From the NCBI GenBank assembly GCA_000002445.1, contig CP000071.1:2208001-2272000 (forward strand): 64,000 nt of DNA, given 5' to 3'. Below, one piece after another: positions 13,053 to 34,593 of the stretch. This DNA is from Trypanosoma brucei (Eukaryota). Below the pieces are notes generated by a model. It had not been told where the DNA came from and did not search any database. It worked only from the letters and a program-made list of their open reading frames with translations. Within the stretch, counting starts at the first letter, position 1, and each line of letters starts with the position of its first letter. The position numbers were made by a program, and so were the translations under genes.

Positions 13053-13089
<37 letters not shown>
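13053..13089 (+). repeat. Composite microsatellite (CA)n(TA)n
   Basis: cacacacacacacacacacacatatatatatatata, read directly. Confidence 0.95.
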
Positions 13090-13273
13090 TTTTAACGCAT
13101 ATCCCTGAGGTGTGTCGTTCGCGCCCGCATTGCGCAAGCCGTGTGTCCGCTCACAAAGGCATCATACTCGTTGCTCAGCGTGACGACAATTCCCTTCGCT
13201 GGCCATCAAGCAGAGGAACTTGTGGGAGTTGTAAAACAAAGGTCAAAAAGAAAGGAGGTGGGGCCAAGGGGAC

Positions 13274-13933: not shown

Positions 13934-14749
13934 AGCGGTGGCAGTGTTTATATGAAAAAAGTAGAAAGTGGGGGAGCGACGGCGCGCCTCTAATCATTTC
14001 GAGTGTATGTGTTCCGGCACAATTCAAGGGAATGTGTAAAAGGGACATGTGACTTTAATCCTCCGTTAGGAAAAAAAAAGTTGAGGAGCAAGGAAATAGG
14101 CTTCGGGTGCCGTATTTCAATTGGTTATCTCCTTAGTTGTTGTCACACATTATTTTTTGGAGCTTTCTCTGGAGGTGACTACTTCGTTGTTGTTTTACTG
14201 AAACTTCTACCCATCTTTTTTTTGTCTCCATTGATTTACCCTCACATGTCTTTGTTCCCCGTAGCGATAGTTGCTCCTTGTTATTTATTTTACTGTTTCT
14301 ACCGCCCGGTTTTGCTCAAATTTGTCATGTGATTATTGTGCAATCGTGTCATTAATAACGTCATTCTCAGCTTCTTTTCGCCTTTTAAAGTAGAAGGAGT
14401 GCAGTGCTTCGGGGGCTATAAATTGGGCTATGAATATTTCCTTATTTGTTTGATTGTTACCACCACTTTTTTATTTTATTTTACTTTCTCCTCTCTGCGT
14501 TCATATTTTTGTGTTTTTTAGACGTTATTGTCTTTTCTTTTTTCTCCTTTAATTATACACGAAAAGTGTGAAGAACCCTCTCTTTTTTTATTGTGTCAGT
14601 CACCTCCTTTCTTTCACTTTTTTCCCTTACTCCACACAATTACCCATTTCGATGCACAACCATGTATAAATTTCTTTTTTCATTGTTTGCCGTTGATCTC
14701 CCACGTGCTTATACGTGCTTATCGCCCTCATACCTTTCAGTTGATAGGT

Positions 14750-14785
14750 ACACACACACATATATATATATATATAATATATATA
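14750..14785 (+). repeat. Composite microsatellite (CA)n(TA)n
   Basis: Same flanking context (cctttcagttgata[ag]gta ... ccctgaggtgtgtcgttcgcgccc[ag]cattgcgcaa) as the copy at 13053, so part of a duplicated upstream module. Confidence 0.95.
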
Positions 14786-14998
14786 CGCATACCCCTGAGG
14801 TGTGTCGTTCGCGCCCACATTGCGCAATCCGTGTGTCAATCTGTAATTTCCCCATCGGCATAAGCGGTGGCTGGTCGGCACACCGTTGCACACACGTCAG
14901 GAAAAAATTATACATTTCAGCTCGGGATCGCCCCAGTGAACAGAAGGACGAACATTCCCTTCACAGGCCACTAGTCGAGAAATTCTTGGGCGACAGCA

Positions 14999-15676
14999 AT
15001 GGCGACAAATAAGGGAATAACGTTTCAAGTCATAGTGGGCATCGCCGCACTGCTTTCGGCGTTCATAATAATTATGATATGCATTATAGTCATCGAGAGG
15101 AGGCGTCTTCGGAATGCGAGGGCACGGCAGAACGTGCAGCTCGACCCAGCGGCACTTAATCTCACTGGTGAGCAGTTGCGCCACCGTTTGATACGCCACG
15201 CCGTTGACCTCCTTTTAGCTGATAACTATGTATGTGAGGGGATTACCTTAACTTCCACAGTGGGTGTGACGGAAGTTCTCGCGGACAGGGAATTACGCTC
15301 CACCCGCGGTAGGCCGTATTTCATTACGACGGCAAATGGTCGGCGTGCCACCATTTCACAAGTAGTGCAGCAGACGCGCGCAAGTGGTCAAGCACCCGAT
15401 TCCCCGCCAGGTCCTGCGTTGATGGAACTCCTCGAGAAATTGCAGCACGCCCGAAGGGCGGAGCCGGTACCCAATGAAGCGCTTTGCAAACAAGTGGAGG
15501 AACTGATGGAGCGTCTCATAAAACTCGAGGAGGCTAATCAAAGGAAAGATATGAAAACTGATGCAGATGAAGTGTATGGGAAAGCAGCACAGTATGCAAC
15601 GAACCCAGCTAATAAATGCGTTCGCCACGTCATGAACGCTGTTGGGGTAGGAAGAAGTCTGGTCGCTTCCCGATAA
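14999..15676 (+). CDS. Hypothetical single-pass membrane protein, tandem paralog 2 (225 aa)
   Basis: N-terminal TM segment (VIVGIAALLSAFIIIMICIIVI) then RRRLRNARARQ. Paralogous to 13274-13933 across its length. Confidence 0.65.
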   Translation: MATNKGITFQVIVGIAALLSAFIIIMICIIVIERRRLRNARARQNVQLDPAALNLTGEQLRHRLIRHAVDLLLADNYVCEGITLTSTVGVTEVLADRELRSTRGRPYFITTANGRRATISQVVQQTRASGQAPDSPPGPALMELLEKLQHARRAEPVPNEALCKQVEELMERLIKLEEANQRKDMKTDADEVYGKAAQYATNPANKCVRHVMNAVGVGRSLVASR

Positions 15677-16377
15677 AATGAGACATTTAGACAAAACAGG
15701 GAAAAAAGCGTAACCTTCCGCTTCTCTTCCATCCTATGCACACACACTACGTGCGGGCGCGCTTCCCTGTAGTCGCTCGTTTGGAGCACCGTCTAGCTTG
15801 TATTCCTTTGAAATATATGGAAAGAAAAGGAGAAAGTGGGAGGAAAGGAAAATGATTCTAATATTTTTAAAGAATTAAGAGAGGGAGTGACTAAGCAATG
15901 TGTGCGCCACAAAACCAAGGAAAAGAAGAAAGGGGGAAATCAGTAACAAAAATGCAAACGTGCGTCCGGCCACCTGTTGGGACCCAAAGTGGATGAAAAA
16001 TTGCGGTATATTTTAACTGCTTGATATGGTGAGGTGGAAACAATGGAAGGAGGAATAAAGGTGAGGAAGTTTCATATTCCTCTCTTTATTTGTTGATCTC
16101 CCAACACACACACACATATACACTTCCTCCTCATTACCATCCCCACTCATCATTCTTCTGTCGAGTACTTCCTTTCGTTTTGTTTTGTTTTCTCCCTTTC
16201 CTTCTCTTCCTGTAGTGTTCGTTTGTGTTTTTTTTTTTTAGATTGTGGACTGTTATTATTAATATTAATATTACAGAGAAAGGCGTAATGGGTAATTACC
16301 CAATATCTAGGACTACGGTATTGCTATACGTCGACGACTTGATTTATTTGTCGCCCTGTAATTGAATGGAGGGACGG

Positions 16378-16419
<42 letters not shown>
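16378..16419 (+). repeat. Composite microsatellite (CA)n(AT)n
   Basis: Read directly. Confidence 0.95.
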
Positions 16420-17335
16420 ATGAAGAAAAAAGAAATGAAAGAACCAAGTATAAAGAAATAGCACGGGGAGGAAAAGTGAAAAAGAAAGAAAAATTCGACA
16501 TTTTCTTCCACTTTGCTTAAATGTCATATTTTCGGCGTATTTCACTTTCTCCCACCTTTTTTTAAAGTGTTTTCCTTGTATGGAAAATGTACCTGGGAAG
16601 AAATCTTATTTTGGTGTGCCCATGCGTATCAGTCGTATACCTAACCATCAAAATCGGCACCACATACCTCATGTACTCATTTACTTTTATATTTCCTCAT
16701 CTTCCTTGTTACTCCTTCTTCTCTTTTTTTCTTTCCTTTCTTATGATCTGGTTTTTCTCACCCTTCATTCTTCCCTTATTGTTACCACCATGATTATGAT
16801 CATCACTACCATTATTATTCGTGTTGCTAATGGCGTTGTGTTGAGGCATTAGTTTTGTCTCCCCGTTGTTATTGGCGTTTTTTTTTTGTTTCCTCCGTGG
16901 TGTGTGTATGTTGTTTGGTTGTTGTTTCTTTTTTCTTTGTTCGGGTGTGTAGTTGCAATATTATTTCAGCTAACTTTTCATGCGGTTTTCGTACTGCTTT
17001 CATACAACTCACACAACTTTTCGTGTGTGTCTGTGTGTGTGTTCTTCTTTGCTTTCAAGTAACGATTTGATTATGAATTAACGTGTGTAAATGTACATAT
17101 ATACATATATATATATATGTTTATATATTCACGTGAAAGGTGAATTTGAAAGAAAAGTAGAGAAATATGGCAGGTGTTTTCTCGTTTCTCCCTTTTCTTT
17201 CTTTTTTTTTTTCACTTTGCTGCTTCCATGTATCCACTCTTGATTTAGTGCTACCTCATCGGTAGAGGCGTTGATGTGAGTCGAAGTAAGCAGATAGAAG
17301 TGATTGATAATATTCCCCTCATGCTTTTTCGTGTT

Positions 17336-17369
<34 letters not shown>

Positions 17370-17370
17370 G
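17336..17370 (+). repeat. Composite microsatellite (TA)n(TG)n
   Basis: Read directly. This is the reverse orientation of the (CA)n(TA)n type. Confidence 0.95.
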
Positions 17371-20057
17371 TGATAAAGAGGACGTTGTTGTTATTGCGTT
17401 TTGGAAAAGGGGGGAAAAGGAAAATAAGGGAGGGAAAAGGCAACAAAGTCTTCTCCCTCTAACTACTTCTCTGCGTTTGAAACTTTTAATTTATCCTGAA
17501 GGTTTCGAGTTACAGGGTGCTAGCGGTATTTCGTTGTTGTTGCTAAAAGTCATGCGTGTTGCTTCTTCCTGGTTGATACATCTCACGCAGTGTCCCGTCG
17601 TTTGTTTTATTGTTCAGGAACAGGCTCAACAAAAAGAAGAAAGGAGAATTTTTTAAAAAAAGTGTTTGAGGAAAGTCGCTGCCGAGACTTCTTGCACGCA
17701 CACGAGCTGTGGGTTTTGTCGATAACTGGGTTCATGTTGTGCTGATAATTTATATTCATTCCAACACGCGTTCCCACCTCTCCCTACCATCATTACCATC
17801 ATTATAAAAGAAAAGGGCGTGAGACAGTAAAAGTGTTTAAGGTAAAGAACTGCCTGGAAAAGAGGGGGGAAGAAGAGGATCAACACCGGTGACTTTTTGA
17901 GGGGAGGAGGAGGAGGAGGAACTTCATACGTGCGGTGCTCAGACCACGATTATTCAGTAAGCGAAGCAGGAGTGGGAGCCACAACATCAATCTTCTTTTA
18001 CACCAACCCTAACACAATAACTACGTTTACGCACATACATGTTCATGTTGAAGTGAACTAAGACGGCGCCGAAAGGGAACAATACACATATATGTATACA
18101 TACATATATAAGCCTAGTGCTGAGTGGTTTAAGCACGAGCCAGTATATTGGGTTTTACACCAAACCTATCGGTCGTTGCTAGTCGCCGTAACATTTTTTT
18201 GCAGTAATGAATGCAGACCTTGCAGATCTTCACTTTCAAGGTGATTCGGGATGGGTGATGTTAGCAGTCTCCTCCGCTGAAACCAGAGAGTCCATGCAAG
18301 TGGTGCTTCCTCAAAGCGCCAGATTCAAAGGGGGAAAAATGTTGGAAACGCGAAGTCGCCCTGTCAGACTTGCCGTGATGGTTTTTGTGTGTTGTACAGA
18401 AGCCGAGTGTTTTTCTTCCTTTCACTAGAGCCTGGATCAGGACCTTGGGAAAAGGCGCATTATGGGGTAAATTGGATTGTTTCATCATAAATCAGAATAT
18501 CCCACCTACTGCCCAATACGCCTTCCTTCCATTTTGGAGGGTCTTTACATTTCGACGTGCTCAACTACCGTAGGGGAACAACAGCTGCAATTAGTTCCGC
18601 GGAAACACATATAGGATAAATCAAAATATTTTCATCATCCTGGTGAGAAGAGGAATACCGCCGATGTGTGGAGTGGTGGTTGGGATAAATTCTTCAGTAT
18701 TAGCATTTGCTCACTTGGCATGGAGGCTGTAAGCCCCCATAGCAATGGTGTGTATCCTACTTGATGTTGGGTTTGCGCAGCCAGTGAAGTCGCTCTCTAT
18801 GTTGGGCATCTCGGAAGTTTGTAATGCTTCCCCGGGTGTTGCTTTTGCCCTCAAACGCTTGAATAGTTTCGGCAACGAACAAAATAAAAAAAAGACTTCC
18901 CTCTCTATAAAAGTATTCAGACGTGCATCGGTGGGGTAGGCCACCTTACTGGCGCTGTGGTTGCCGGATCCTGTTGCACGTCGGCCAAAAAAAGTTCGGG
19001 CGGGGTATCCCAAAGAAATATATATATGCACTTAAAAGGATACCGTGTGAGCCTGAACGAAAGCGATCGTGCGAGCAGATACAAGAAAATCAGGGTGAAA
19101 GTGCCGCCCACGTTCTTTTGCTGTTGTTGTTATTGTTGCTGACACAATGGGTCTCTTATGCATGTTAATGCAAAGGAGTGGTGAATCAAACGGCTGCAGA
19201 AAAGAAAGTGGGTATTTGGGATATGGCATGCAAGGCACTGTTGGGATGTGATTCGAGTTGCCTTCCCCCTTCTTAAATGCTGGAGAGTGGGTGCTCACGC
19301 GCCAATCTTGCATTAAAAGGGTACGCGTGAAAATGACAACAGAGGCGAGACATGCTGTGGCAGTGCAATGCTGCTGAAGAAAAAAGTGGAGGTGTTGGAA
19401 AACGATGATAATTTAAACCGGTACGGTGAGTTCGTTTACGCAACCCAGATGCCCGGGCATCGCGCGGCATTCGGGAACTGGGGGAGAGGGAAGTGGAACT
19501 TGAGCGGGCGACAACTATTTTAAGCCCTCTTTATGTACATTATCGCTTTTGTGCATGTAGTTATAATTGTACTCCCTTTGGATTGTTTACAGGGGATATT
19601 TTCTCCAAAGCACGAAGAGACAGCAGCGAAACCTTCAAGACGATTAAGGGAGCGGATGCTCATGTAAACGTATCAATCGGCAGGGAAAGTAACGTGAGAA
19701 GCGCACAGGCCAAAACGGCAGGCAGTACTGGAAGGTGCTCCTCCCACTAGGGGTGAAAAGAGCATCGCCGCAAGCGCACCGCTGTTTCGGGGCAGACAAA
19801 CAGGCAGCAGTTTGGGGGCGACCGAGAATTGATGGTATCTGTTAATTGCTTCCGCTCGGACCGGATTCATTTGCTGCACGAGAAGTAAAGCCTCTTTTGT
19901 CCACATGTTTGCCCATCGGGTCCTCTTAGTTATTGCAATCTCTCTTGCCATCTCACTTTTTAAAACAATTATCCGCTAGTACCCCAAGAGGAGAGATCTG
20001 CATAAGGCGGCCGAGCTGAGCAACTGGTACCCCAAAAAAAAAAAAAACAGCAATCAC

Positions 20058-21251
20058 ATGGCACGGCACCCTTTAGGGAATATGTACGCAATGACGGCAG
20101 AAAGGGCACGGGAGTACGGTTTTGTGTCCCACTACAATCACACAGGGAGTGAGGCGTCAGACAAACTAGCCAACAACATCACCCTGACAAGCGAAGAATG
20201 GGTACAGTTGTTGACCGGTCCCGTGCAATTTATAACGCAGAGTGGCGGCTGGGGTGGTGCGGGTTTTGACGCAACAGTGCTCCCTCAACTTCTTTTATGT
20301 TTTCCCTGGGTTATTGCTTTCCTGATGTTTCGGGTCTTCACCCAAAGGCAGCTCATACGTGTCGGTCTTTGGTTGCAAGTTGTTGTCCCTAAAGGTGGCA
20401 CTGCGGCGACATTAAGCAATTCACAGCGGCGGAAACTCAAGAAGTTCCAGAACCAGGTGTGGTTGGCAACGTATTACATTGTCTCTACCATCTTTGGGTA
20501 CGCCGTGCAGATTGGAAAGCCGTGGTTTGGCCTTCCCGTGAGCAAAGCAAATCGTGTTGCATTGCTTACCCCGCACCCTTACAAACCGGGCAACGGTTTA
20601 CTATGTTATTATCAGTACGGACTCGGATTTTATATCGCAGAAATGTTAGCGCTTCTTACAGAATATGACATCAAGCGATCGGATTTTGTCGAATACTTTA
20701 TTCACCACATCGTAACGGTCGCACTTATCGTTGTATCGCACTGCAGCTACGAGCACCGCTTCGGAGTGTATGTATTGTTAATTCATGACGCCAGTGACAT
20801 TATGCTGGCTTTAAGCAAGATCCTGAACTATGTTTTAGGCGCACAAGCAAAGAGGACGCGGCAGCGCAAAGCTGGTAAGAAGGTAGACGTGGTGGAGGCA
20901 AAATCCTCATTTCTTTACAGAATGATATTTTGTGAAACTACAATGAACATAGTTTTTGTCGCATTTACGGCAGTTTTCGTTTTCTTTCGATTGGTTTGTC
21001 TTCCGTACCTCGCCCTATCAAACATTGTTTATGGTGTGAAGATACGAATGTTCACCTGGAGTTACTGTTTGTTAATTTTTCTGCTGCAGGTAGCGCTTCA
21101 GGGGTTACACATTTACTGGTTCACAATCATCGTGAAAGTTTTGATCAATACAGCTCTGGGAAGTCGTGTAGATGACATTCGCTCTGAAGACGACGAAGAC
21201 GATGGTAACGTCAGGGAGAGAGCCTCGTTCAAGCACTCCAAGACGTCGTAG
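20058..21251 (+). CDS. Ceramide synthase (sphingoid base N-acyltransferase), LAG1/TLC-domain family (397 aa)
   Basis: Multi-pass membrane protein carrying the Lag1p motif with the invariant His pair and Asp residues (RSDFVEYFIHHIVTVALIVVSHCSYEHRFGVYVLLIHDASDIMLALSKI). It has an acidic C-terminal tail (SEDDEDDG). The start could instead be the internal Met of MYAMTAER. Confidence 0.8.
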   Translation: MARHPLGNMYAMTAERAREYGFVSHYNHTGSEASDKLANNITLTSEEWVQLLTGPVQFITQSGGWGGAGFDATVLPQLLLCFPWVIAFLMFRVFTQRQLIRVGLWLQVVVPKGGTAATLSNSQRRKLKKFQNQVWLATYYIVSTIFGYAVQIGKPWFGLPVSKANRVALLTPHPYKPGNGLLCYYQYGLGFYIAEMLALLTEYDIKRSDFVEYFIHHIVTVALIVVSHCSYEHRFGVYVLLIHDASDIMLALSKILNYVLGAQAKRTRQRKAGKKVDVVEAKSSFLYRMIFCETTMNIVFVAFTAVFVFFRLVCLPYLALSNIVYGVKIRMFTWSYCLLIFLLQVALQGLHIYWFTIIVKVLINTALGSRVDDIRSEDDEDDGNVRERASFKHSKTS

Positions 21252-22502
21252 AGGGTAATAAAATGGCTGGGAGAGCAGTGGGAAGATGATGACTCTATTT
21301 ACAAAATGTTATTTTTTTTTCTTTTTTCGTTATTTTTTTGACCTCCAGTGCCTCTGAGACACAGTGCTCTCCTGAGGAAACGTAAGATAATTCTGGAAAA
21401 AAAAGGGTAAACCCCCTTTAGAGTTAGCGCAGGTTGGGTGCCCAAACTCATGACCTTCAGAGGTAATGACAATCTTTTCATAAGCAGCGGTGTTAGCCAT
21501 GTTGTATTAGCTCAATTTCACTCCTTTCCCCGTAGGCACACATCATTTGTAGAGACCGCTGCCGCTGCAAACATGTCCACCCCTATATATATATATATAT
21601 ATATATACGTATCGTTGTGGATGCTTATTCCCCCCCCCCTCCCTTCTATCTTGACAAGTCTTCCCTGGATTTTCTTTTTATTTTTCTTAGACGCACATGG
21701 GTGAATATGCTCATATTTTTATATGTAGGGTGTTAATCTGACATTCCTAGTTTATTTGAGCCGCGAACATGTGCTTGGTAACACTTACGGGGATGGGGCC
21801 GGGAGCGGAGTTATTTCTGCGGACTGTTCAGACAACCTGCAGCAGTTTGTAGAAAGTTATGCGTTTTTGGATGATGGATAAAACTCAGGTTTTATCCATG
21901 TGTTTCGCTAGGATTCCTCTTCCATTCAAAGTTCGACAAGATAAGTTAGTGGAAGGAAAGGCGAGCGATATGTTGGCGCACTGAAATTGGGGCTAACTAA
22001 ACCAACTGTGAAGGAGTTATCGGGAAGGTGTTGGAAATTGCGTGGGGCCCCGAAGCCCCAAGTGGCCATTGGAAATTTTTTTTTTTGGTTCAGAGAGGAT
22101 CGTCGTGTTTTACATCGTGTTGTGGTGCGGTTGAAAGTATCATTACATTCGGGGCGAAACACTGTGGAAGGTAAAGAGACAGTATGCACCTCAGGTAAAT
22201 AAAGCCTGTTTTGACCGTTCTCTATAATTAACCTCCCTTCCCTTTGGTTTCTCCGCCCAACTATCTCCTCCCCATGCATAATTACGCGCAACGGTAGTGC
22301 CTCATTAAATGTCTTTGCATTATCATTTCGTTGGTTATTACACGTTAGTTTCTGTCTGCGTGACCTTGATTGTGTGACAGAAGTGACTCTCCTCAACTTC
22401 TTCCCCCTCTCCCTATCTTTCTAATTTGGAGTAGAATAACTAATATCACCACGAAGTTGAGTTTTTTTTTTTTCTCGTCAACAGCCACAAATAAGCGAAA
22501 GT

Positions 22503-23906
22503 ATGACATCCGGAGCTGCTGCACAAGCACCAAACAAGTGCCCTACCAATGAGGCGGCGGCGGAACCGTTACGCGTTCCAAACGTTCTCACGGGTGAACC
22601 GTTCGTTAGCCCCAACTCGAATGAAGGAGAAGCACTGGAGAAACCTGAACGGCCAACCAATGCGCTGGCGCGGTGTTTCCATTTTATCTTGCCGCGCGGT
22701 GGTGCCCTTTCCGGCATCTTCAACCTGGCAAGTGTTACATTGGGTGCCGGTATCATGTCAATTCCATCCGCTTTCAACACATCGGGCATGATCATGGCAA
22801 TCATCTATTTGGTGCTGGTTACGGTTTTTACCGTCTTCTCCATTTTCCTGATTGTGTCTGCGGCGGAAAAGACCGGCTACCGCAGCTTTGAGTCCATGGC
22901 GCGTAATCTACTCGGTCGCCGTGCTGATATTGCCGTGGGTTTTCTGTTGTGGCTTCTGTGCTTTGGCGGTGCCTCTGGATATGTGGTGGCAATCGGTGAC
23001 GTCCTCCGGGGGTTGCTTTCACATGAAAAGGTGCCGGCGTACCTTAAAACAGACAGGGCTCGCCGTCTTCTGATGGCCGCCATTTGGTTTGTCTTCATCT
23101 TTCCCTTGGCGCTCCCTAAGAGGGTGAATTCATTGCGCTATGCGTCAGCGATCGGCGTTTCGTTCATCCTATTCTTCGCCATCTGTGTGGTGGAGCACTC
23201 GGCTGAAAAGATGGTTGCCGATGGCGGTATCAAGCAGGAACTTGTCATGTTCCGCTCCGGTAATGACGCCGTGGCAGGGCTTTCGCTATTCATTTTCGCT
23301 TATCTTTGTCATGTAAACTCATTCTCCATCTTCTTTGAGATGAAGAAGCGTTCCGTCACTCGTATGACCCGCGATGCGGCGGTGAGCTGCTCCGTTTGCT
23401 GCTTTGTCTACCTGCTCACTGGATTTTTTGGCTACGCAGAATTCGGCACAACAGTGGAAGGCTCCGTTCTGAAACTTTACGACCCCTACGCAAATCCCGT
23501 CTTCTTTGTTTGCTTCGTTGGCATCATCGTAAAACTCTGCGCTGGGTTTTCGCTTAACATGCTCGCATGCCGTACAGCCCTCTTTCAGGTGCTGCGGTGG
23601 GACCTGGATACCATGTCATATGTTAGGCACAGTATCGTCAGTGTTTCATTTGCTGTCGGTTCGCTCGTTCTCGGTTTGTTCGTGCCAGACATCAACGTTA
23701 TCTTCGGGCTTGTCGGCGCCTTCTGCGGTGGCTTCATTGGCTTTATATTCCCAGCACTCTTCATCATGTACGCCGGTGGTTGGACACGCCAAAGCGTGGG
23801 CTGGGTGCAGTATATATTGACGTATGTATTGCTCATCTTGGGCGTTGTTGCAATTGTCTTTGGTACTAGCACGTCCATTTATTACACAATTAAGAAGTAC
23901 TATTAA
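22503..23906 (+). CDS. Amino acid transporter (AAAP/AAT family), divergent third type (467 aa)
   Basis: Hydrophilic N-terminal tail, then about 11 hydrophobic helices. It shares AAT blocks with paralogs A and B (GALSGIFNLASVTLGAGIMSIPSAFNTSGMIMAIIYL; LYDP; GLFVPDINVIFGLVGAFCGGFIGFIFPALFIMYAGGW) at only ~35-40% identity. Confidence 0.8.
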   Translation: MTSGAAAQAPNKCPTNEAAAEPLRVPNVLTGEPFVSPNSNEGEALEKPERPTNALARCFHFILPRGGALSGIFNLASVTLGAGIMSIPSAFNTSGMIMAIIYLVLVTVFTVFSIFLIVSAAEKTGYRSFESMARNLLGRRADIAVGFLLWLLCFGGASGYVVAIGDVLRGLLSHEKVPAYLKTDRARRLLMAAIWFVFIFPLALPKRVNSLRYASAIGVSFILFFAICVVEHSAEKMVADGGIKQELVMFRSGNDAVAGLSLFIFAYLCHVNSFSIFFEMKKRSVTRMTRDAAVSCSVCCFVYLLTGFFGYAEFGTTVEGSVLKLYDPYANPVFFVCFVGIIVKLCAGFSLNMLACRTALFQVLRWDLDTMSYVRHSIVSVSFAVGSLVLGLFVPDINVIFGLVGAFCGGFIGFIFPALFIMYAGGWTRQSVGWVQYILTYVLLILGVVAIVFGTSTSIYYTIKKYY

Positions 23907-24956
23907 GAAAGGCAAGGGAAGGAGTGCAAACGGTCCGTGAGGGGAACGGCAACTCGGTAGGCTTTGGGATGCACTTTACTGAGCAAATAAACAGCTAAAG
24001 AGTGATTTTTACTTCTTAACTTTTTATATGGGCCTTTATCCTTTATTATTTTACCCATACGGTTCTATTGTTGTACGCATCCCATACTCGAACCACTTGG
24101 CTGCGGTTTTCGCCCACAAGAACAGTTCAACCTTAGCTGCAGAAGCGTGAGACCGTTGCGGCGGAGTGGGATCCATTTTTCCATCATTTCTTTCCGTTGT
24201 TTGGTATACTTTTTTCTGTTGTTGTTATTTCTTTCCTCACTTTTTTTTCGTTGACCTTGGCAAGTTGCGGGGGGCTAGTCCTTTACACGTGTGTGAAAAG
24301 AATGACGGTCACTTGTGCGGCCTAACTAACCCAATGGGTAAACTGAACTAGCGAAACAGCTAAATGTTTTAACACCTTCCACTACAATTATTCTTTTTTC
24401 TACCAATCCTTAAAGCTACAGCCCTTCCCTCAAGTGTTTTACCTGTTTATTTTTATTTTAACTGACAAACTCTCAGCGTTGTTCTCCACCTTGGCGGTAT
24501 CGCCAAATCTCGGTTTTTACAATCTCCATCTAAAATACTGAGTTATAATTGCACACTTACAACCTCCAGCAGTCCATGTGAATACTGAATCCAGTGCCAA
24601 AAACTATTCCCTCTTTTTTCTTTTTTTATTTTTCAACCCCCAACACCTAGTGTACTACATACAGATAGAAGGGCAGCGTTAATAATTAAAAAAACACACG
24701 AACCACAGCAACACCCACCGACAATACATAGTCACCATTTCTTAACCAGTTGCGACTCATTTTATACATCAAACAAGCAGCAAAATCAACAACGAACTAA
24801 TAAAAAACTACATACCACCACAAAAAAACACAAACAAAAAGTTAAGGAAAGAACCTTCTAAAGGCAACATCACTTTTCCAGCCAACAAACATCTATATTT
24901 CACGCAAAATTCACCAAAAAAAATTTTTTAACAACGAAATATGAAGTTTTGCACAA

Positions 24957-25396
24957 AAACACGCATTCTTGCACAACCTGCACAACGTTGCATGTTTGTG
25001 CACAAAATGCGCACTATTGCGTATTTTCACGTAAAACACGCGTTCATACGTGTGTTTGTGCAAAAACAGTGTTGCAATGCAACATGTAACGTGTTTTGGC
25101 GTANNNNNNNNNNNNNNNNNNNNNNNNNNNNNNNNNNNNNNNNNNNNNNNNNNNNNNNNNNNNAAACACGCATTCTTGCACAACCTGCACAACGTTGCAT
25201 GTTTGTGCACAAAATGTGCACTATTGCGTATTTTCACGTAAAATACGCGTTCATACGTGTGTTTGTGCAAAAACAGTGTTGCAATGCAACATGTAACGTG
25301 TTTTGGCGTAAAACACGCATTCTTGCACAACCTGCACAACGTTGCATGTTTGTGCACAAAATGTGCACTATTGCGTATTTTCACGTAAAATACGCA
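24957..25396. repeat. Tandem satellite, 147-bp unit, at least 2.6 copies visible, interrupted by an assembly gap
   Basis: Units begin at 24957, 25164 and 25311 (aaacacgcattcttgcacaacctgcacaacgttgcatg...) and are ~98% identical. Each unit holds two related hairpins, cgt[ag]tttt-N5-aaaa[tc]acg, and the palindrome gttgca-a-tgcaac. Confidence 0.9.
25103..25163. other. Assembly gap (61 N) inside the satellite array
   Basis: A run of N placed exactly at a repeat-unit boundary, so the true copy number is unknown. Confidence 0.99.
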
Positions 25397-25875
25397 ATAA
25401 TTTGTAAAACTGGTAAATTCTTATGAAGGAGGTGAATATACATAAAAATTGTAATGATGTAGTTTATTCTGTTTGGAATTCTGTATTCGCTATAATTTTA
25501 TTACGCTTTTTATAGCATTCGTATTGGAGGTATTGTCTTCTAATAAATATGTCGTTGTTATTTCCAGGTGGTAATGTGGTATGTCGCTATTCTGCCTTTT
25601 ACGTTTTTTTGAAATGTTTTTTCGTGCCTTCGTGGGAGTTTCCCCCCACTGGCGCGGCAATCAGCCACCACCGTAGAGCCCTGAGATGCTATCGGTCTGG
25701 CGACTGTGGCAGAGTCTCCCTTTTTTCTTCATCCTAACACACCCTCTATAATTTTTGTTGTAGCTCCGCAGTTGAACGGAATACAGCAGATGGGGCGAGA
25801 AGCCCCCCTCCACCCCGGACTCTCCAAAAGATGTCAATTAGCAATCCTTTTGTTTTGATTTTTGTTATTCGTTTA

Positions 25876-26984
25876 TTATTCTCTCCCCCTCTTTCTGTTT
25901 CTGGTGCTTGTTGACAGCATACCCCCTCTGTCTCTGAGGGTGTCTGGACTATTCCTGCGTCCGGTGCTTTCCCTGCTAGCTCCACTCTCGGCAATAAGGG
26001 GGGAAGTTGCAGAAGGGAGAGTGGGTTGTATGACTGTTACATTAGGTGAGGACTTCACCCGCGGCCGGCTCCGTTCAACCGCAATGAGGAACTGCGCCAG
26101 CCTTTTAGAGAAGCATATATCCTGCACACACACCCCTTCTACCACAAACCTGACACGTAATTCCTTCAAACAGGGACAGTTCATCAGGTGCAGCGACGTT
26201 TCTTCGCAGTCGCCGCGTTGGCTGGTAACAGCGCGCTCTACCTTCATACCGTGGATCTTCTTTTGATGTAGGGTGAGGCCAGTTTTGTTAGTACACTGCC
26301 TTCCGCATGTCGGGCACACCAACATGGATGTGTTTGTATGTGGGGAATCAGTGGCACACAATTTTGTGCTTTTGCTGCATTTAAGCTCGACTTCTTCACC
26401 TTGTGGAAAGCCTTACAGTGTCGGATGAGGGAGTCCCTGCAACTGAGCACTTTTTGGCACACACCACACTGCACCTCGCCCTTCCCCGGGACGTCAACGT
26501 TTCCCTCACGGGCACGCTTACGAGGGAATTGCACCACCACCACGGTACCGTCCTCCGTCACTATGCTCTTATGTTTGAATTTCTTGTGTAGTGACAGGGA
26601 AGAGCGTGTACCGAAGCTCGCCTCGCACAGGTCACATTGAAACGGCAGCTTCCGTGTATCCTGAGAGGCTGGCGCTGCTGGGGCTCTACCATCTCCTTGC
26701 AATGAGTCTTCGTTCTCTCGCCCCCTTTTCACGCGACAACTACCGCTGCCTATGCCATGTATTGTTCTAAGGTGGTGTAATAGTCGGCCTGGCACTGCGA
26801 ATTTGGAGGCACAGAGGGTACAATGAAGCACCTGCGGTCTCATCGTGACTCGTGTGCTCGATGGTAGAGGAACGATCGCCACCACTGGACAGGGCTCCGG
26901 GGGGATGTCCACTGCAGGTGTTGCATCGCCGTATTTGATCCTCCGGGGGGCATCAGCTCGCACAAAGCCATGCTTGTTTACCAT
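25876..26984 (-). CDS. C2H2 zinc-finger protein (at least 4 fingers), minus strand; apparent frameshift between ORFs 26984-26244 and 26361-25876
   Basis: Classical C-x2-C-x12-H-x4-H fingers: HCTLCASKFAVPGRLLHHLRTIHG, FQCDLCEASFGTRSSLSLHKKFKH, VQCGVCQKVLSCRDSLIRHCKAFH in the first ORF, and VCPTCGRQCTNKTGLTLHQKKIHG in the second. The two ORFs overlap by 118 nt in different frames. This is the only convincing minus-strand gene in the window. Confidence 0.6.
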
Positions 26985-29900
26985 GTGCGTTACAGCACTC
27001 GACCGGCGCTAGCCATGGGCTTTGTGCTTACGCCGTCTCATTTCATCACCAGTGCGTGTCATATTGTTTTTCGCCGTCGCAGTGGTCGCACGGGTTGTTG
27101 GAGTTCGACGCTTTGTAAGCCGAGCTTTGTACTTTTCATTTCAGGCACTGCAGTGGTGTTCGCGTGTCGATATTTCGCAGCATCCATTTTCAATACCAAG
27201 AGGCAACGGGGCGGGAACGAGCCACTGCCACCTCTTCTTCGCTCGCTTTTCCCCTGACAGCAATATCGGTCCCATGTAGGTTACAATATCCTGGAGCTTC
27301 GCGTCAGGCAACTGCGGCATGTCAGTCACCCTTTCCACCATACCATCAATCATCCCATTCCATTCCACATCAGTAACTAAATACAAACTTCAATGTGGTA
27401 TACGCTTTCCCTCCCGTATTTGTAGGAGAAGCACCCGTAGCTTATTTGGGTGTTGGTCTGCCACGGTGGGATGGGTCTACTTCCAATACCATGAGCGGCA
27501 ACAGCGAGTTTGTGATTGTCAAGAGTCTGCTCAGGGGCGACGCCGGCCACCTCAACGTGGTGCCAAGTTCCAGCGCCCCGTATTTTCAGAGGAGGCCAAT
27601 AGTCAGCAGCGTTTCTCTAGTGGGGAACTCTGCTTTGCTCCAGCTCCGGCTTCTCATAGCGTCGGGGCCGGTCGCGTTTTTCTGGGGCACCGTTTTTCAC
27701 TTCTCGGTCCCGGACACGTGCCAGCACATCATAAGCAGCGTCCGGAGTTTTCTCTATGACGTTGTATACGTTTGGAAAACATCCAGTGACATTCCCGCAC
27801 CCTTTTCTATTGCTAGGGATTCTGTTGGGTTACTGCGGGCCGATGGGGCTGCATTTGCCCGCTTCACGAATATCAGTTTGTTTCCCCCACATGTTGTCGT
27901 AGCTGTCCCATTCTTTTCCCCCCCAATAATGCAGATCCCTCAGTCCACGGCCCGTGGCATCTACCAGCCGGTGATTGTAGACTGTTTCCACTGAAGTGCC
28001 GCGGAATCTGCTTCTTCCATGCTTTTATTTTCATATCTTTGTGATCTTCCGCGCGTATGAGCCTTATTTAATTGCGAAAGAGAACCCTGTTGCTGTATCG
28101 AAGTTTGAGGAAAGTAACTGGGGGCTTACACCACTTGACACAAGGGGATTGGTGATCTCGTGTGATGTATCTCCTCGTGATATTGGTCATGAAAATTCGG
28201 AAGCACTCTTCCTCTGCATTGCGCTACACCGCAGCTTTTCCATTTCACTTCTCAGACCAACATGGGCTTGGCACTACGTATGGAACGCTCTTGAGCTGTA
28301 GGCCCTTGCCGTCAGGGAGGGCGTTCTCCCAGTGTATTCTCTATGATACACCTAAAAATGATATAGCTTAATCTTCGCTATTCAACAGCAAACGCCTTGC
28401 GAGCACTCACCCACACGTCGCAGAAAACACACTTCGATTATCGACATGGCATAGGCTCGTGCTAGCGTGCTGTAAAACACTTTTGCGTTGCCGAGGCTTG
28501 GGAACCATATCAGCGGGGGCACTGCCACTATTCGAAGCATCCTGAAGTTGGTTTTTATTTCCTTTCCAGACAGTGTGTCTGTGTAGGGATTCCGCGCATA
28601 CATTGAGTCCTCAATCTAAGTACCTTCGGTATTCTCTTTGTCCCCGTAAGCGCCACATCGAGGTATAGGTGAAGCGGTGCTCATGCCGTCCGACCGAGGA
28701 GTCAATTTCCTTTTCGTCACATTGGCTTCCATCACGTATTTTATAGATCACCGTAGCACAATATGTGGAGACCCCTCTGATGTACGTGGTTGATGGTTTC
28801 CCTCGCCTTATCCCGAGCAATCAGTATTAATTTCATTCAAAGAAAAGCCATGTTATATTGGGCGTACTTCTGCTAGCCATCAGACCATCGAGTTTCCCTC
28901 CAACATGATACTTGAGATACGACTGAGCGTGGTTAGTCGCGTTACACTCTTCCCAAAACAACATTATGTTCCAAACCATTTATCTAGTCCTTACTATTTC
29001 CATCTTTTCATTGTGAAGAAAGCTAAAACATTTGATGATGCACCACCGTGCATTTAACATTTTCCGCTACCGCACCGAGCTTGTCATGCTCAACTTTCCC
29101 CCAAAAGGGCCCTCCCATACTCAAAGAATATACCATACCTATACGTGACGTTAGTGATGGACGGCTAAAAGCTGCTGAAGGGTTCAGAAGAGGATCTTCC
29201 AATGTGTGGTGGTACACTTTTCCTTCCTTATACGAAACCTCAATTTTTTCACAGTCTAAGTCGAGTATGGTTCATTCGTTTAGTAACTTTCCGTGTGCAC
29301 CTCGTGAGCGTCACCAGTTCGTATGAGTTTTCATATTTCATTTTCTTAAAAGCTGCTAGGGCATGGATGTTCAGACGACACATGATTCTGTTTTGATGTT
29401 TCGATTCTCTTCTACGGACTCATATCAAACAGTTAAAGCAAGAGCGTAAATTATTTGTTTCTGGGATGTTACTGTGTTTCGCTGCCCAGATAAAGGGAGG
29501 CAGCCGCTGAGACACGTGGTAGCTGATGCGGTGATATTATGGGTTGAAAAAGTGTTATCGTTCGGAGCTATATCATTTTTGTGTTTATAAACACTAACTA
29601 TTGTGAGTAGCTATGCCCTTTGAGAGACGAAGGGCATAGGTCAGGGAAGTGCCTCACCCGTTACCGGCCACTGGCAGAAGCTTCGTGCGCCATAGCCAGC
29701 GGAGTGCTGTGAAACATTGGAGTATATATATACATATGCTGGTGATGCATCACCCATATGGGTCTTAAACCTTTAGTCGTCACAAAAATGCACACCACCT
29801 CTTCAATGCCACACGATCCAGCGGTTGCTTCCGCATAGCACTCAGCCCTTCCTCAATTTAGTGAGATCAAGCTCTTAGTAGCGTTTATCTACAGGGTTAA

Positions 29901-32900
29901 GAAAGTTCGTGTGCCCAGTGTTGTATTGTACTGTGGTGTTCCCCTACTCACTCGTGGGGCAGCTCCAGCAGGTTGAAATAAGATCGTGGGGTAGAAGTCA
30001 ATCGTTTGCCCAAACCACATAAACTCCGCCATTTCTGCCCTTTTTGTCCTTGTACGGTCCCGTGGTCGTCCTTCCGAATTCACCCCACTTAAGTTTGGTT
30101 CATACATGAAAAAGAGGTTTCCGACACTGGCGGTTCAGGTTATCCATTGTGTTTTTCCACTAAATTACACAGGATAAGATAGGGTGATGGTACATATTTG
30201 CTGAAGTGTAGTGATATCCATGCGTACGCCCCGCGCTATCTTTACAGGGGATGCATCATGTTCGGGCTTCGCCGCTCAGTGCGGGCACTTAGTGCCATGG
30301 CCAGTTTTTGGTTGACTCGAAAATGGTTGTTGATACAGCGCCGCATTAAAGTTTTTCCTTTGGTATGTGGTTGGATGGTGCGGCATCAGGAAGGCGCGTT
30401 GGCAAGAGCACCGGCACCAATGAGTTACGCAAGTCACGTTACGCGCACTGGCTTATTTACCCCTAGCATAAAAGTGTGGTGTGACAGAGTTACTAGTGAA
30501 AGCGACGATTTGCATCCTCTCTTGTAGATAGGCGATGGCCTGCGTATCTTAGACGTGTGAAATGACTTCTGTTCATAGCTCTGCTAGAAGGTCTTCCATA
30601 ATGAGCATACGAGCATGCCGCTACCTTCTTACAGATGTAGGTTGTCTTGTGATATGTTGGTAAAAGGTAGCGCTTATGGACCTTGATTCTGTAGTTGTTA
30701 TCCTAGTTCCAGTCACGACACAGAAGGTTGAAAACGCATCAACAAGCGTTTTATAAAATATACTGGGATTACTTTCCTCTGGAACGTGGTGCAACTCTAT
30801 TGATGTTCCAATGCCAGAACTTTTATAGACCTCCCTTTGCGTGAGTGGACGGAGGTGTCCTTTGGCATGGGCAATCATCGGATAATGCGTTCCCAGGGAT
30901 CGAAGAGTGCATAGTTGTATTCCACACCGACGCCAGTTGCTACGTTGGTGCGCGGTGCTGTAGCGGGGGCACATAAATCAATGTCTTGTTGCAGTGGAAC
31001 ACCGCCGTCTTGTTATCTTCCCCTAAACGTACGACGCACCAAGCCTTGCTCCTATGTTATGGTGGCCGTCACAGCCAAATTGCCAAAGATAACCATTCCC
31101 GCACATGGGGAGGTGCCTAACCTTCCTAGCCCATCTTTTCAAACACGCCAGTCTGTCTTAATACATTTAATCTCTGCAACATATGAACCCTCTTTCATTC
31201 ATCTTATGCATTCGCTTTCAGGTTTCCTGGGGGGAAGAATTTATGTGCACTCTGATTTTTGATTTCGTAATTCAATCTTACCACTGAATTAAGCCATCCA
31301 GATGTTAGATGTTTCCGATAATATGGTCGGCCTTTTAGCCCGAAAAGTGTCCTTTCTCAGCGTTTCGCGTCACGTAATATTACACTTTCCTTTCGTGTGC
31401 CACCCGCACAACGGATATCCGTTGCAGTTCTGAATGTGTCTTGCTTGTTTGCGTCCGATGAAACCCCCAAAATTGTGTACACTGACTGAGTTTGCATCCT
31501 TTCTGTTTCTCCCATGTTTAAAGTAGAGGGTGAAAACAAGCAGTCAGAGACCCTGTAGAACATATCTACTCGTACAAATCCTGGGCAAAAGCCTTTCAGC
31601 GCTTCCCTTTAGGGAGCCCATTCAGACGATGTCACTGCCTTTAGCTTCGGCAATCTTGCCCTTGCTAACCTCACTTTTCGTTGAGCACGCTTCGACAGTA
31701 CCTCCGGTAACTGTAATGAAAAGTTTCAAAAGCCTTCTAATTGTCGCATTATCAATCCTTTTTCTACGTGCCGTGATGTACGTGAGAGATTGTGATTGCT
31801 CCATCCAAACAATGTGTGTTCTCTTTTCCCCCTTCCATGTTGTAATCCCCCATAAAGTGTCTCTTAGACCACTAGGTTACACAACTCCCTCCGTCTATAG
31901 GCGTACATTTCATGTCCTCCTTGTCAGATACCGCTACCTTCAGTGTCAGCTCGACAGCGAATAGGCTGTACATGAGTCCAGGCGCCTTATTTGATTTTAC
32001 AGTCATACAATCCATCGTTGCAATGAAGGGGTAGCGGCTTCATACCGGTCACTGTGGAATGGAATGCATCAATATTACATTCCCATATAAAGTGTTGTGT
32101 AGTTGGAACATCGCAGTTCTGTCCACCATTAAGTAGTTTACTCACCATATCGCTCGTGGATCTACTTTAAATCGATCTGGCGCTCAGATGGTAGAGATAT
32201 GTCCCACCGAGACAAATAGATTTACATAGTCCAGAACTGTCTCTACGACTCAGGAATGGTTATCCTGCTGCATGATTGCATTTACCGCTTCCACAATGAA
32301 GTTGGTGGTGCCCTCAATGGTCAGTAACCCGACTGTCATCGCTGCTGCTGCTCTCCCACGCAGTTTTTAAGTTTCCTGACCGTCACTATCTCGATGAGTT
32401 CGTACACGGTACCGATTACCATCTGCAGCCCGGGTGATCCAACTTTTTAGTTGATTCATTCAGCTCAAAGAACAGTGATGTGGTGACCTCCTTTCTCCAC
32501 CGTTCAGTAGTTTCGCCGAGTCTTGGCGGCGGTATTTTCTTTTGTTTTTTTTTAAGTGCCGAAGTAAACATGACCTTTAGTTTCCCGCATTTAACTCTTT
32601 CCCCTGCTGCCATTTGTTAGACCGATAGTTCTTTTGTTTCTTTTTCGGTTCGACACACGCAAGCAGTTCAGACAATTCTAGGTATAGGGAAAATTCATCC
32701 TTGGGGTCACCGAATTTCCTACGGAACACTTCACATACATATCCTCAAATCGCTGAGCCTCCATTTTTTCCTTTTTCCCAAGTGTGTGACACATCCTCCA
32801 TTATTAGGACAGGGTCGATGTCGGTCGCAGTGCCAATACCGATTTCGGCGAGACTCAAGCTTTTCGTCTATCAGCAGCTTGGAAGTGCTTCTTCCCCCAT

Positions 32901-34593
32901 TACCTTGCGGCCGTTTCGCTTAGTACACACTTTCTTGGGTGAATGAATACTGACCTTCCCCTATGGTTCCACGCTAAGTCATTTTACCCCCAAGTACCAC
33001 CAATACCATGACCCAATGTGGCGGCACCGAACCTCGTCTATTAGTGATTGCTGTTTCTGGCAGGCGCACCGCAGATGCAGTAGATCCACTGGGCTCGTTA
33101 TCTCCCCTTTACATTCCATTCAGCCGGCTTACAGGGCTTATCAGCACACTGTTTTCGGAAATGTGGCCAGTTCGTTCTCCCCACACGGAAACAAAGTACT
33201 ACGGCACTTGAAGTGCTCGATCCTTCCTATGTTGCTTCCCACTGCTCCACAGAAGGTAACCTCAGCCACGCCTCCTGTTAAAGCCTTTAATCGCATTCTA
33301 AGATGTCGCCCCGTGGTTTACAGAGCAGACGACACTGGGGGACGGCATTTCTATCTTAATCGCCCCGCCAAGCACGCCTCCTTTCCGGTCCTGGTGTTGT
33401 CGCACGCGGTTACCCCTCGCCGCTACATACCAAACAGTCTTGTTGTTTCGATGCTACGGAGGAACTGTCGCTTAATTTACTGCTGGTCGGAACGCCGGAC
33501 CCCTGCGCGACGGAGAAACGGCGGACGCAGCTGGGGTCGGCAATGATAGCAGCACGTTTGCGTGGCATACCTGGCGGGTGCTCCTGGTAGCCGAGGTAGC
33601 AGTTTTCTCTTACCGGAGGCTTGCTGTAAGCAACTGGCCGTTGCGTGTGTTCCTGTGTGTGGAGCGACCTCGTGTTGACGTATAACGAAGCTTCGGGTGG
33701 GGGAGTACGGCAGCCGGGGTTCGCTGGCTCCACGCATCCGAGGGAGTGTGTACGAACACCGCCATTTGGACATCACCAGATGCGCCAGCCTGTAGCCGGT
33801 ACCGGCCGGGTGGGGATGCGCCTGCCCTGCGTGCACTCGCTCGGGTACCGTATCTGTACGTATGTAAGCCGCGTGGGCGCCTTTGATCACCGGGTGGTTT
33901 CCAGCCGGCCGTCGGACTCCGTTGCTGCCTGCGTGCGAGCCGCTCGGTGAGGGTGATATAGCCACCGAGGACGGGAGCTGTCGTCTTTGTTTTTTTCTGC
34001 AGGTCTGGCTTGTTTGATTCGATAATCATGCAGATCAGGTGGTTGGTTACTCGGTCACGTTCTCTCCGCTCCTTTTGGTGATGTAACAGGAGAAGCGGTT
34101 TGTAGCACCCACTGAGGGGGTGCGTCCGCTTGGCCGATCTACGGGCGGGTCGCATCTCCCATGTTTTAAAAGCGGGGCTGCAACCAGTGTTGATTGTTTG
34201 AGGCGTCGCAGAAGCATACGGAACACGCAAGCCAGCGTTTCAACTGATTTGCTCTGTTTGAACGCGTAGTAAAGCAAAGTTCATTTGTTAGGTAACAACA
34301 AAAGCTCACCAGTGCTGTGGTGCTACTGCAGACTGCGCAGAAGACACCACACCAAAATAACATCAGTTTAGATACAGTATCTCTCGAGTGTATGAACTAC
34401 CGTAGCAACGGTGCTGACTGCGTTTTAGTGGACGGGGTTGGGGTTGTGCACGTCTTAGTGAGGCTTAGTGTGTGTGTGTGTGTGTGTAGGGGGGGGGGAA
34501 GGGGGACGTCTGCCAGGTACGGATTTTATTTGTTGCCACAGTTATGATTTTTTTTGTTTTTTGGCGTGACACGCTAGTGCACTGTATCGCAAA

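What the first reader, a model, noticed from the sequence alone, without database searches (positions are those of the whole stretch)
25876..26984. Isolated minus-strand C2H2 zinc-finger gene with an internal frameshift
Classical C2H2 fingers are uncommon in kinetoplastids. Here four well-formed fingers are encoded on the minus strand, but the fourth (VCPTCGRQCTNKTGLTLHQKKIHG) is in a different frame from the first three; the two ORFs overlap across 26244-26361. This is either a sequencing indel next to the gap-containing satellite or a real pseudogenisation. The gene is also the only minus-strand gene, wedged between two plus-strand blocks, which is unusual for polycistronic genomes. It may be a remnant of an inverted segment.
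Basis: seen in the sequence. Interest (0 to 1): 0.5.

Follow-up and report, generated by a model that had tools for sequence, protein, structure and literature searches.

The report
Dead ingi retrotransposon tail, not a gene
The "zinc-finger gene" is the broken last 1.4 kb of an ingi retrotransposon, a common mobile element of Trypanosoma brucei, lying beside the chromosome 4 centromere repeats, so it is ordinary and already known.

Summary
Two overlapping minus-strand ORFs (26984-26244 and 26361-25876) carry four C-x2-C-x12-H-x4-H fingers, and the fourth is in another frame.

It is not a cellular gene. Window 27007-25604 (-) is 93-94% identical at the DNA level to the last 1.4 kb of several Tbingi copies in T. 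b. equiperdum and T. b. gambiense. The match includes the 3' UTR and the A-rich tail.

- The apparent ATG (26984) is the Met inside a fifth finger. That finger's first half is missing, and a TAG sits 24 nt upstream.
- The frameshift is a 1-nt deletion in an A-run at 26402, directly after finger 3. Other ingi copies and T. theileri relatives read through in one frame.
- Upstream, 31090-27008 (-) is a colinear, stop-riddled ingi-related remnant (DIRE) with traces of the endonuclease, reverse transcriptase and RNase H. It is only 46-59% identical to Tbingi, so the full-length element is an in-register old/young chimera.

The window is T. brucei-group chromosome 4. The gapped satellite is the 147-bp centromeric array, which has at least 43 units in the T. 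b. equiperdum orthologue. Ingi and DIRE elements flanking these arrays are already published.

Interest is low. Whether the 1-nt deletion is a sequencing error cannot be settled here, and it does not change the verdict.

The parts
25604..27007 (-). 3'-terminal 1.4 kb of a Tbingi retrotransposon (ingi nt ~3873-5279). It holds the second half of finger 0, fingers 1-4, the C-terminal C-x5-H-x3-C module, the stop codon, a ~270-nt 3' UTR and the A-rich tail.
   Evidence: blastn gives 94.2% identity over 1412 nt to L003 6342-7748 and 93.3% to L005 11626-13032. L006 (T. b. gambiense) matches at 94.7% over 434 nt and then runs into Ns. All matches start at exactly 27007 and end at 25604.
26244..26984 (-). 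ORF A (246 aa) with fingers 1-3. The first Met is the Met of '...SSAVTHMVNKH' in finger 0. The last 50 aa are out-of-frame read-through.
   Evidence: The intact ingi ORF reads TKCTECDATYQCRSSAVTHMVNKHGF.
25876..26361 (-). ORF B (161 aa) with finger 4 (26316-26251), the CEETSLHLMNC motif (26208-26176) and the conserved tail ...CFSKRLAQFLIAVER. The native ingi stop is TAA 25878-25876.
   Evidence: The module recurs in many copies in T. theileri ('Tbingi protein'), T. grayi, T. congolense and Strigomonas.
26401..26403 (-). Frameshift site. One A is missing from an AAA run directly after the last His codon of finger 3.
   Evidence: This is the only indel private to the window within the coding part, in the alignment with L003 and L005. 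The three-copy majority consensus is a single open 369-codon frame. T. theileri P0002 also has VCPTCGRQC in frame with the preceding fingers.
27009..27011 (-). In-frame TAG 24 nt upstream of the apparent ATG, at the junction between the old and young parts. It closes the ORF on its 5' side.
   Evidence: Read directly from the sequence and from the alignment.
27008..31090 (-). Highly degenerate ingi-related element (DIRE-type), colinear with the ingi tail. Remnants: Pr77-type 5' end 31077-30888, AP endonuclease 30977-30206, reverse transcriptase 29851-29255 and 28894-28580, RNase H region 28121-27145.
   Evidence: tblastn and blastn against T. brucei ingi parts. Identity to Tbingi is 46-59% per 250-nt bin. 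Each frame has 52-68 stops in about 1360 codons, and the longest open stretch is 118 aa.
27536..27738 (+). Inverted ~205-nt copy of ingi nt 21-225 (the Pr77 hallmark and the sequence after it), nested in the RNase H remnant.
   Evidence: 78-80% identity to L003. DNA-level match to the 5' end of the T. theileri element. Its translation matches P0081 and P0088 residues 2-57 at 61-63%. It accounts for the ~214 extra nt of the composite element.
31848..33141 (-). Reverse-transcriptase remnant of a second degenerate ingi-like element on the minus strand.
   Evidence: tblastn: RT aa 320-448 at 32234-31848 (E=1e-6) and, colinear with it, aa 16-71 at 33141-32977.
24957..25457 (.). 147-bp AT-rich satellite with a 60-N gap at 25104-25163. 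This is the collapsed chromosome 4 centromeric repeat array (CIR147), and the retroelement abuts it.
   Evidence: The orthologous T. b. equiperdum locus L007 is 98.2% identical up to the array and then carries at least 43.6 units of 147 bp. Literature: PMC1868937, PMC3292466, PMC12975129.

Best explanation
The feature is the non-functional 3' end of an ingi (Tbingi) non-LTR retrotransposon lying antisense between two plus-strand gene blocks. It sits directly beside the 147-bp centromeric repeat array of T. brucei-group chromosome 4.

In an intact ingi, the single long ORF ends in a domain of five C2H2 fingers plus a short Cys/His module. By analogy with the homologous C2-L1Tc domain of T. cruzi, this domain binds and chaperones nucleic acids during target-primed reverse transcription.

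Here only the last 1.4 kb is ingi-like (94% identical). It begins in the middle of finger 0, is preceded by a stop codon, and has lost one A at 26402. That deletion puts finger 4 in another frame.

This tail is joined in perfect register to about 4.1 kb of ancient, stop-riddled ingi-related sequence (a DIRE). The whole is a full-length but dead chimeric element.

Shown here: identity to ingi, the truncation, the lesion, the degenerate upstream part and the centromere context.

Inferred: that it makes no protein; that the chimera arose by homology-guided gene conversion, recombination-mediated deletion or RT template switching; and that any present role is only the generic one of centromere-flanking retroelement DNA (a transcription-unit boundary and a source of siRNA).
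For: - DNA identity of 93-94% over 1.4 kb to independent ingi copies, including non-coding 3' sequence and the A-rich tail, with identical end points 27007 and 25604.
- In those reference copies the same segment follows ORFs with Exo_endo_phos, RVT_1 and RNase_H Pfam hits.
- The L003 ingi ORF runs RNase H, then finger 0, then fingers 1-2, and is 93-95% identical in protein to the window.
- The protein relatives found are 'Tbingi protein' fragments of T. theileri and multi-copy fragments in T. grayi, T. congolense and Strigomonas.
- The majority consensus of three copies is one open 369-codon frame. The window's only private coding indel is the 1-nt deletion at 26402.
- Endonuclease, RT and RNase H remnants lie upstream on the same strand with exact spacing. 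The composite spans 5473 nt against 5259 nt of ingi, and the difference equals the nested ~205-nt fragment.
- The flanking gene is 99% identical to its T. b. equiperdum chromosome 4 counterpart, and the orthologous locus carries at least 43 units of the 147-bp repeat.
- Obado et al. 2007 (PMC1868937) report DIREs either side of the chromosome 4 AT-rich array.
- C2H2 fingers at the 3' end of L1Tc/ingi elements are established (PMC5814959).
Against: - No 12-bp target-site duplication was found around the composite element.
- The ingi tail still has unusually long open frames (246 and 161 aa). Substitutions on the window lineage are 12 synonymous to 17 non-synonymous, slightly richer in synonymous changes than pure neutrality predicts. 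Other ingi copies show the same ratio.
- No transcript, read or orthologous-locus data could be obtained for the fragment itself. Exact-sequence look-ups failed.
Confidence: 0.93

Rival explanations
1. It is a genuine stand-alone cellular C2H2 zinc-finger gene on the minus strand. Either it has recently become a pseudogene through a frameshift, or it is intact and the frameshift is a sequencing error in a short A-run.
For: - The fingers are well formed and have Pfam support.
- The frames are long and open.
- The lesion is a 1-nt change in a homopolymer about 1.2 kb from an assembly gap, a typical place for a sequencing error.
Against: - The ATG lies inside a finger whose first half is missing, and a TAG sits 24 nt upstream.
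- The sequence, including 270 nt beyond the stop codon and the A-rich tail, is a 94% copy of a dispersed repeat found at several unrelated loci.
- Restoring the missing A yields only an N-terminally truncated ingi C-terminus.
Confidence: 0.02
2. The ingi C-terminal zinc-finger fragment has been domesticated. It is kept by selection and expressed from the minus strand as a nucleic-acid-binding protein, for example at the centromere boundary.
For: - The ingi tail is far better preserved than the 4 kb upstream: 94% against about 50% identity to Tbingi.
- Its position next to the centromeric array is notable.
- C2-L1Tc-type domains bind nucleic acids on their own (PMC5814959).
Against: - The good preservation is explained by youth. 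The tail differs from other ingi copies by the usual 4-7% seen between copies.
- Its substitutions show no stronger purifying pattern than in L003 or L005.
- The frame is broken after finger 3, and the non-coding 3' UTR is equally well preserved.
Confidence: 0.03
3. The junction at 27007, and perhaps the frameshift too, is an assembly artefact. A repeated ingi 3' end was wrongly joined to a unique DIRE next to a collapsed, gapped satellite.
For: - The satellite is clearly collapsed, with 3.4 units plus 60 Ns against at least 43 units in T. b. equiperdum.
- Ingi is a high-copy repeat, which is prone to misjoins.
Against: - The join is in perfect register with the DIRE (138 nt for 46 codons; the composite is full length).
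- The DIRE is only about 55-60% identical to ingi at the junction, so an assembler had no overlap on which to merge reads.
Confidence: 0.05

Closest known systems
Tbingi (ingi), the 5.2-kb autonomous non-LTR retrotransposon of Trypanosoma brucei (ingi/L1Tc clade)
   Same: Window 27007-25604 is 93-94% identical to the 3' end of ingi copies. The match covers the zinc-finger coding region, the stop codon, the 3' UTR and the A-rich tail. The order upstream is also the same: Pr77, endonuclease, RT, RNase H, zinc fingers.
   Different: Only the last 1.4 kb is ingi-grade. The 5' 4.1 kb is about 50% identical and full of stop codons. There is one private frameshift and no detectable 12-bp target-site duplication.
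[quoted passage not shown] 2007, PMC1868937)
   Same: Window 31090-27008 fits the description: long, ingi-related, heavily degenerate, lying between directional gene clusters next to the AT-rich ~147-bp array.
   Different: The 3' quarter of this element is not degenerate. It is a young ingi tail joined in register, a chimeric state I did not find described in the papers I read.
C2-L1Tc, the C-terminal C2H2 nucleic-acid-chaperone domain of T. cruzi L1Tc (Heras et al. 2005; reviewed in PMC5814959)
   Same: Same position at the C-terminus of a retrotransposon of the same clade, and the same finger type (C-x2-C-x12-H-x3-5-H).
   Different: L1Tc has two fingers and Tbingi has five. No direct sequence comparison with L1Tc was made here, and no activity was tested.
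T. theileri 'Tbingi protein' fragments (P0001, P0002, P0003-P0008)
   Same: They align over the fingers and the C-terminal module at 30-52% identity. Finger 4 is in frame in P0002. The T. theileri elements have a Pr77-like 5' end and an endonuclease ORF upstream.
   Different: The T. theileri copies have one extra finger and lack most of the RT region. They are also fragmentary.

Membership tests
Tbingi / ingi-clade non-LTR retrotransposon | Dispersed multi-copy sequence with high DNA identity between copies | tested here: met
   93-95% identity to copies at three unrelated loci in two T. brucei subspecies (L003, L005, L006).
Tbingi / ingi-clade non-LTR retrotransposon | C-terminal C2H2 zinc-finger domain followed by a 3' UTR and an A-rich tail | tested here: met
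   Fingers at 26822-26251. Homology to ingi continues to the A-rich stretch ending at about 25604, where the copies diverge.
Tbingi / ingi-clade non-LTR retrotransposon | Pr77 (76-79 bp) hallmark at the 5' end | tested here: met
   A degenerate copy lies at 31077-30888 (-), 62% identical to ingi nt 20-204. A better-preserved inverted copy lies at 27536-27738 (+).
Tbingi / ingi-clade non-LTR retrotransposon | AP endonuclease, reverse transcriptase and RNase H domains, in that order, in one ORF | tested here: inconclusive
   Colinear remnants are detected with ingi-specific queries. There is no Pfam hit and no open frame. The domains are present as fossils, not as working domains.
Tbingi / ingi-clade non-LTR retrotransposon | 12-bp target-site duplication | tested here: not met
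   No shared 12-mer with at least 9 of 12 matches between the flanks at ~31100 and ~25600. This is expected if the 5' and 3' ends come from different events or if the insertion is old.
[quoted passage not shown] | About 5 kb, related to ingi, with numerous stops and frameshifts | tested here: met
   Holds for 31090-27008: 46-59% identity and 52-68 stops per frame. It does not hold for the 3' 1.4 kb.
Stand-alone cellular C2H2 zinc-finger gene | A complete ORF with its own start, unique in the genome, with syntenic orthologues | tested here: not met
   The ATG lies inside a truncated finger with a TAG 24 nt upstream. The sequence is a dispersed repeat. All relatives found are retroelement fragments.
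T. brucei centromeric domain (CIR147 array flanked by ingi/DIRE) | An array of ~147-bp AT-rich repeats between gene clusters with an adjacent ingi or DIRE | tested here: met
   147-bp units at 24957-25457, with at least 43.6 units at the orthologous T. b. equiperdum chromosome 4 locus. The retroelement abuts the array. Kinetochore or topoisomerase-II binding cannot be tested here.

The most novel reading that the evidence does not exclude
The element is a true in-register chimera: about 4.1 kb of ancient DIRE fused at ingi nt ~3873 to a young Tbingi 3' end. Possible origins are homology-guided gene conversion, microhomology-mediated deletion between two tandem elements, or RT template switching from an ingi RNA to a DIRE transcript.

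If template switching is the cause, dead DIREs could still be copied by borrowing an ingi tail. If conversion is the cause, centromere-flanking retroelements are being partly refreshed by active copies.
Probability: 0.45. Interest if true: 0.3.

Novelty: already known. Interest (0 to 1): 0.12.

Why it matters
It mainly removes a false lead. There is no unusual zinc-finger gene here and no unexplained strand anomaly. The minus-strand "gene" is retrotransposon debris of a kind already mapped at T. brucei centromeres.

Practical value:
- ORFs like this should be masked as ingi/DIRE in annotation.
- The window can be placed at the chromosome 4 centromere boundary.
- The satellite in this assembly is collapsed.

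The only point of some originality is the sharp, in-register old/young junction. It could inform how trypanosome retroelements recombine.

Tried and rejected
- Pfam scans of stop-masked translations, all three frames of each strand over 27.5-33.8 kb (+) and 26.9-32.3 kb (-), found nothing. The remnants were visible only with ingi-specific queries.
- Rfam and tRNA scans of the whole window were empty.
- A search for the L1Tc Pr77 primer sequence with up to 3 mismatches found nothing. The hallmark was found later by homology.
- The first word-indexed protein search returned only two T. theileri hits. It missed a 93%-identical T. b. equiperdum ingi ORF, so its silence was misleading.
- Exact-sequence look-ups of four window proteins all failed: the TLC protein, the amino-acid transporter, ORF A, and ORF B read from its first ATG. 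The orthologous copy of the fragment in another strain could therefore not be fetched to test whether the deletion is shared.
- The T. b. equiperdum flank ended inside the repeat array. P0093 lay elsewhere on chromosome 4.
- Twin-priming inversion was considered as the source of the inverted Pr77 fragment. It was set aside because the minus-strand element has its own 5' end at ~31077 and is colinear throughout.
- A possible ingi trace at 63823-63996 (+) did not hold up.

Full report
**Observation.** On the minus strand, ORF 26984-26244 (246 aa, ATG) and ORF 26361-25876 (161 aa, TTG) overlap across 26244-26361.
- Four matches to C-x2-C-x12-H-x4-H lie at 26822-26757, 26636-26571, 26468-26403 and, in the second frame, 26316-26251.
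- Pfam gives zf-C2H2_4 (E=6e-7) and, below its gathering score, zf-C2H2 (E=6e-4).
- Every other long ORF in the window is on the plus strand.
- A 60-N gap sits at 25104-25163 inside a 147-bp satellite.

**What it is related to.** A frame-corrected protein found only two relatives in the word-indexed search. Both are T. theileri proteins named 'Tbingi protein'.
- One of them, P0002, carries VCPTCGRQC in the same frame as the preceding fingers.
- An exhaustive HMMER search with ORF B found 72 hits. The best are short fragments from T. theileri ('Tbingi protein'), T. grayi, T. congolense and Strigomonas.
- These fragments share finger 4, the motif SQR..CEET..HLL.CP.L..LR and the tail CFSK.LAQFLIAVER. 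This is a multi-copy element, not a gene family.
- In the T. theileri loci the zinc-finger ORF lies downstream of an ORF with a weak Exo_endo_phos_2 match. That ORF is 59-66% identical to T. brucei ingi endonuclease fragments.

**Direct identification.** One of those T. brucei fragments led to a T. b. equiperdum ingi copy, L003. Its called ORFs carry Exo_endo_phos, RVT_1 and RNase_H.
- Its last ORF reads ...TKCTECDATYQCRSSAVTHMVNKHGFVRADALRRIK... and is 93-95% identical to the window protein.
- At the DNA level, window 27007-25604 (-) matches L003 6342-7748 at 94.2% over 1412 nt and L005 at 93.3%. L006 (T. b. gambiense) matches at 94.7% until it runs into Ns.
- The end points are identical in all three comparisons.
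- Homology continues about 270 nt past the stop codon TAA 25878-25876, into an A-rich stretch. There the copies diverge into their own flanks.

The "gene" is therefore ingi nt ~3873-5279: the C-terminal zinc-finger domain, the 3' UTR and the tail.

**The start and the frameshift.**
- The ATG at 26984 is the Met of THMVNKH, that is, inside a fifth finger ("finger 0"). Its Cys half is missing.
- The high-identity block begins at 27007, and a TAG occupies 27011-27009.
- In the alignment with L003 and L005, the window's only private coding indel is one missing A between 26403 and 26402 (CCACAAGG against CCACAAAGG). This is directly after the last His codon of finger 3.
- The majority consensus of the three copies is one open 369-codon frame containing all four fingers.
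- Other copies have their own private frameshifts; L003 has a 2-nt insertion near the position aligned to 26720.
- Substitutions private to the window fall 8/9/12 on codon positions 1/2/3, with 12 synonymous and 17 non-synonymous. L003 and L005 look similar, so nothing suggests locus-specific selection.

**Upstream.** The same strand carries colinear fossils of the rest of an ingi-like element:
- a Pr77-type 5' end at 31077-30888 (62% identical)
- endonuclease at 30977-30206
- reverse transcriptase at 29851-29255 and 28894-28580
- the RNase H region at 28121-27145

The spacing is exact. Forty-six codons separate the last weak match from the strong one, against 138 nt in the window.

The composite spans 5473 nt against 5259 nt of ingi. 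The excess equals a nested fragment described below.

Identity to Tbingi is 46-59% in every 250-nt bin from 31100 to 27008, then 93-98% down to about 25710 and 84-86% in the last bin, which runs past the tail. The two reference ingi copies are 91-98% identical to each other throughout.

The old part has 52-68 stops in each frame, and its longest open stretch is 118 aa. It fits the published definition of a DIRE (PMC3820030). No 12-bp target-site duplication was found.

The element is thus a full-length, in-register chimera of an ancient DIRE and a young ingi tail. I infer homology-guided conversion, recombination-mediated deletion or RT template switching. I cannot tell which.

**Context.**
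- The TLC-domain gene at 20058-21251 is 99% identical to T. b. equiperdum sphingosine N-acyltransferase on chromosome 4.
- The orthologous locus L007 is 98.2% identical to window 10056-25099. It then continues into at least 43.6 units of a 147-bp repeat.
- The window keeps only 3.4 units plus Ns, so the array is collapsed in this assembly.
- Obado et al. 2007 (PMC1868937) mapped the T. brucei chromosome 4 centromere to a domain with DIREs either side of a 149-bp AT-rich array.
- Later work places the chromosome 4 CIR147 array and kinetochore protein KKT2 at about 880-895 kb (PMC12975129). The T. b. equiperdum coordinates here are about 886-892 kb.
- A second minus-strand RT remnant at 33141-31848, together with the negative GC skew over 24-34 kb, shows that the whole gene-free stretch is antisense retroelement debris.

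**Function.** In an active element this domain is expected to act like C2-L1Tc of T. cruzi, a C2H2 nucleic-acid chaperone at the C-terminus of the retrotransposon polyprotein (PMC5814959). That is an analogy from literature, not tested here.

At this locus the fragment has no start, is preceded by a stop and is frameshifted. The best reading is that it makes no protein. Any role would be the generic one of centromere-flanking ingi/DIRE DNA. Transcription could not be examined.

**Verdict.** This is already-known biology and of low interest. The one mildly original point is the sharp DIRE/ingi junction.

Noticed in passing
window 24957-25457 (gap 25104-25163); L007 14881-21194: The 147-bp AT-rich satellite is the chromosome 4 centromeric CIR147 array. 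It is collapsed to 3.4 units plus 60 Ns in this assembly. The orthologous T. b. equiperdum locus has at least 43.6 units and runs off the fetched DNA.
   Followed up: yes
window 27536-27738 (+): A ~205-nt inverted copy of the first ~225 nt of ingi (the Pr77 hallmark and the sequence after it). It is 78-80% identical to Tbingi and nested inside the RNase H remnant of the minus-strand DIRE. A 5'-only fragment is not what target-primed reverse transcription normally leaves, so its origin is unexplained.
   Followed up: partly
window 27007 (junction), 31100-25590 (-): Identity to Tbingi jumps from about 50% to about 95% within a few bases, with perfect colinearity. An ancient DIRE carries a young ingi 3' end. 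No target-site duplication was found.
   Followed up: partly
window 31848-33141 (-): A second degenerate reverse-transcriptase remnant, colinear over two tblastn segments. At least two antisense ingi-like fossils fill the gene-free stretch 25.6-34 kb, which also shows negative GC skew.
   Followed up: partly
L001 6259-12054 and L002 7744-11539 (T. theileri): The T. theileri 'Tbingi' repeat is internally deleted: a Pr77-like 5' end and an endonuclease ORF are joined almost directly to a zinc-finger region with six C2H2 fingers, and most of the RT is missing. L001 has an extra 2.4-kb segment between the two parts.
   Followed up: partly
window 10056-25099 vs L007; window 6014-7330 vs L007 1-1317: The first ~1.3 kb of L007 matches two places in the window, 10056 onward and 6014-7330, at 98.9%. 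This indicates a local duplication of about 1.3 kb in the plus-strand gene block.
   Followed up: no
The word-indexed protein search returned no T. brucei hit, although a called 481-aa T. b. equiperdum ORF is 93-95% identical to the query region. Negative results from that tool should be read with caution.
   Followed up: no
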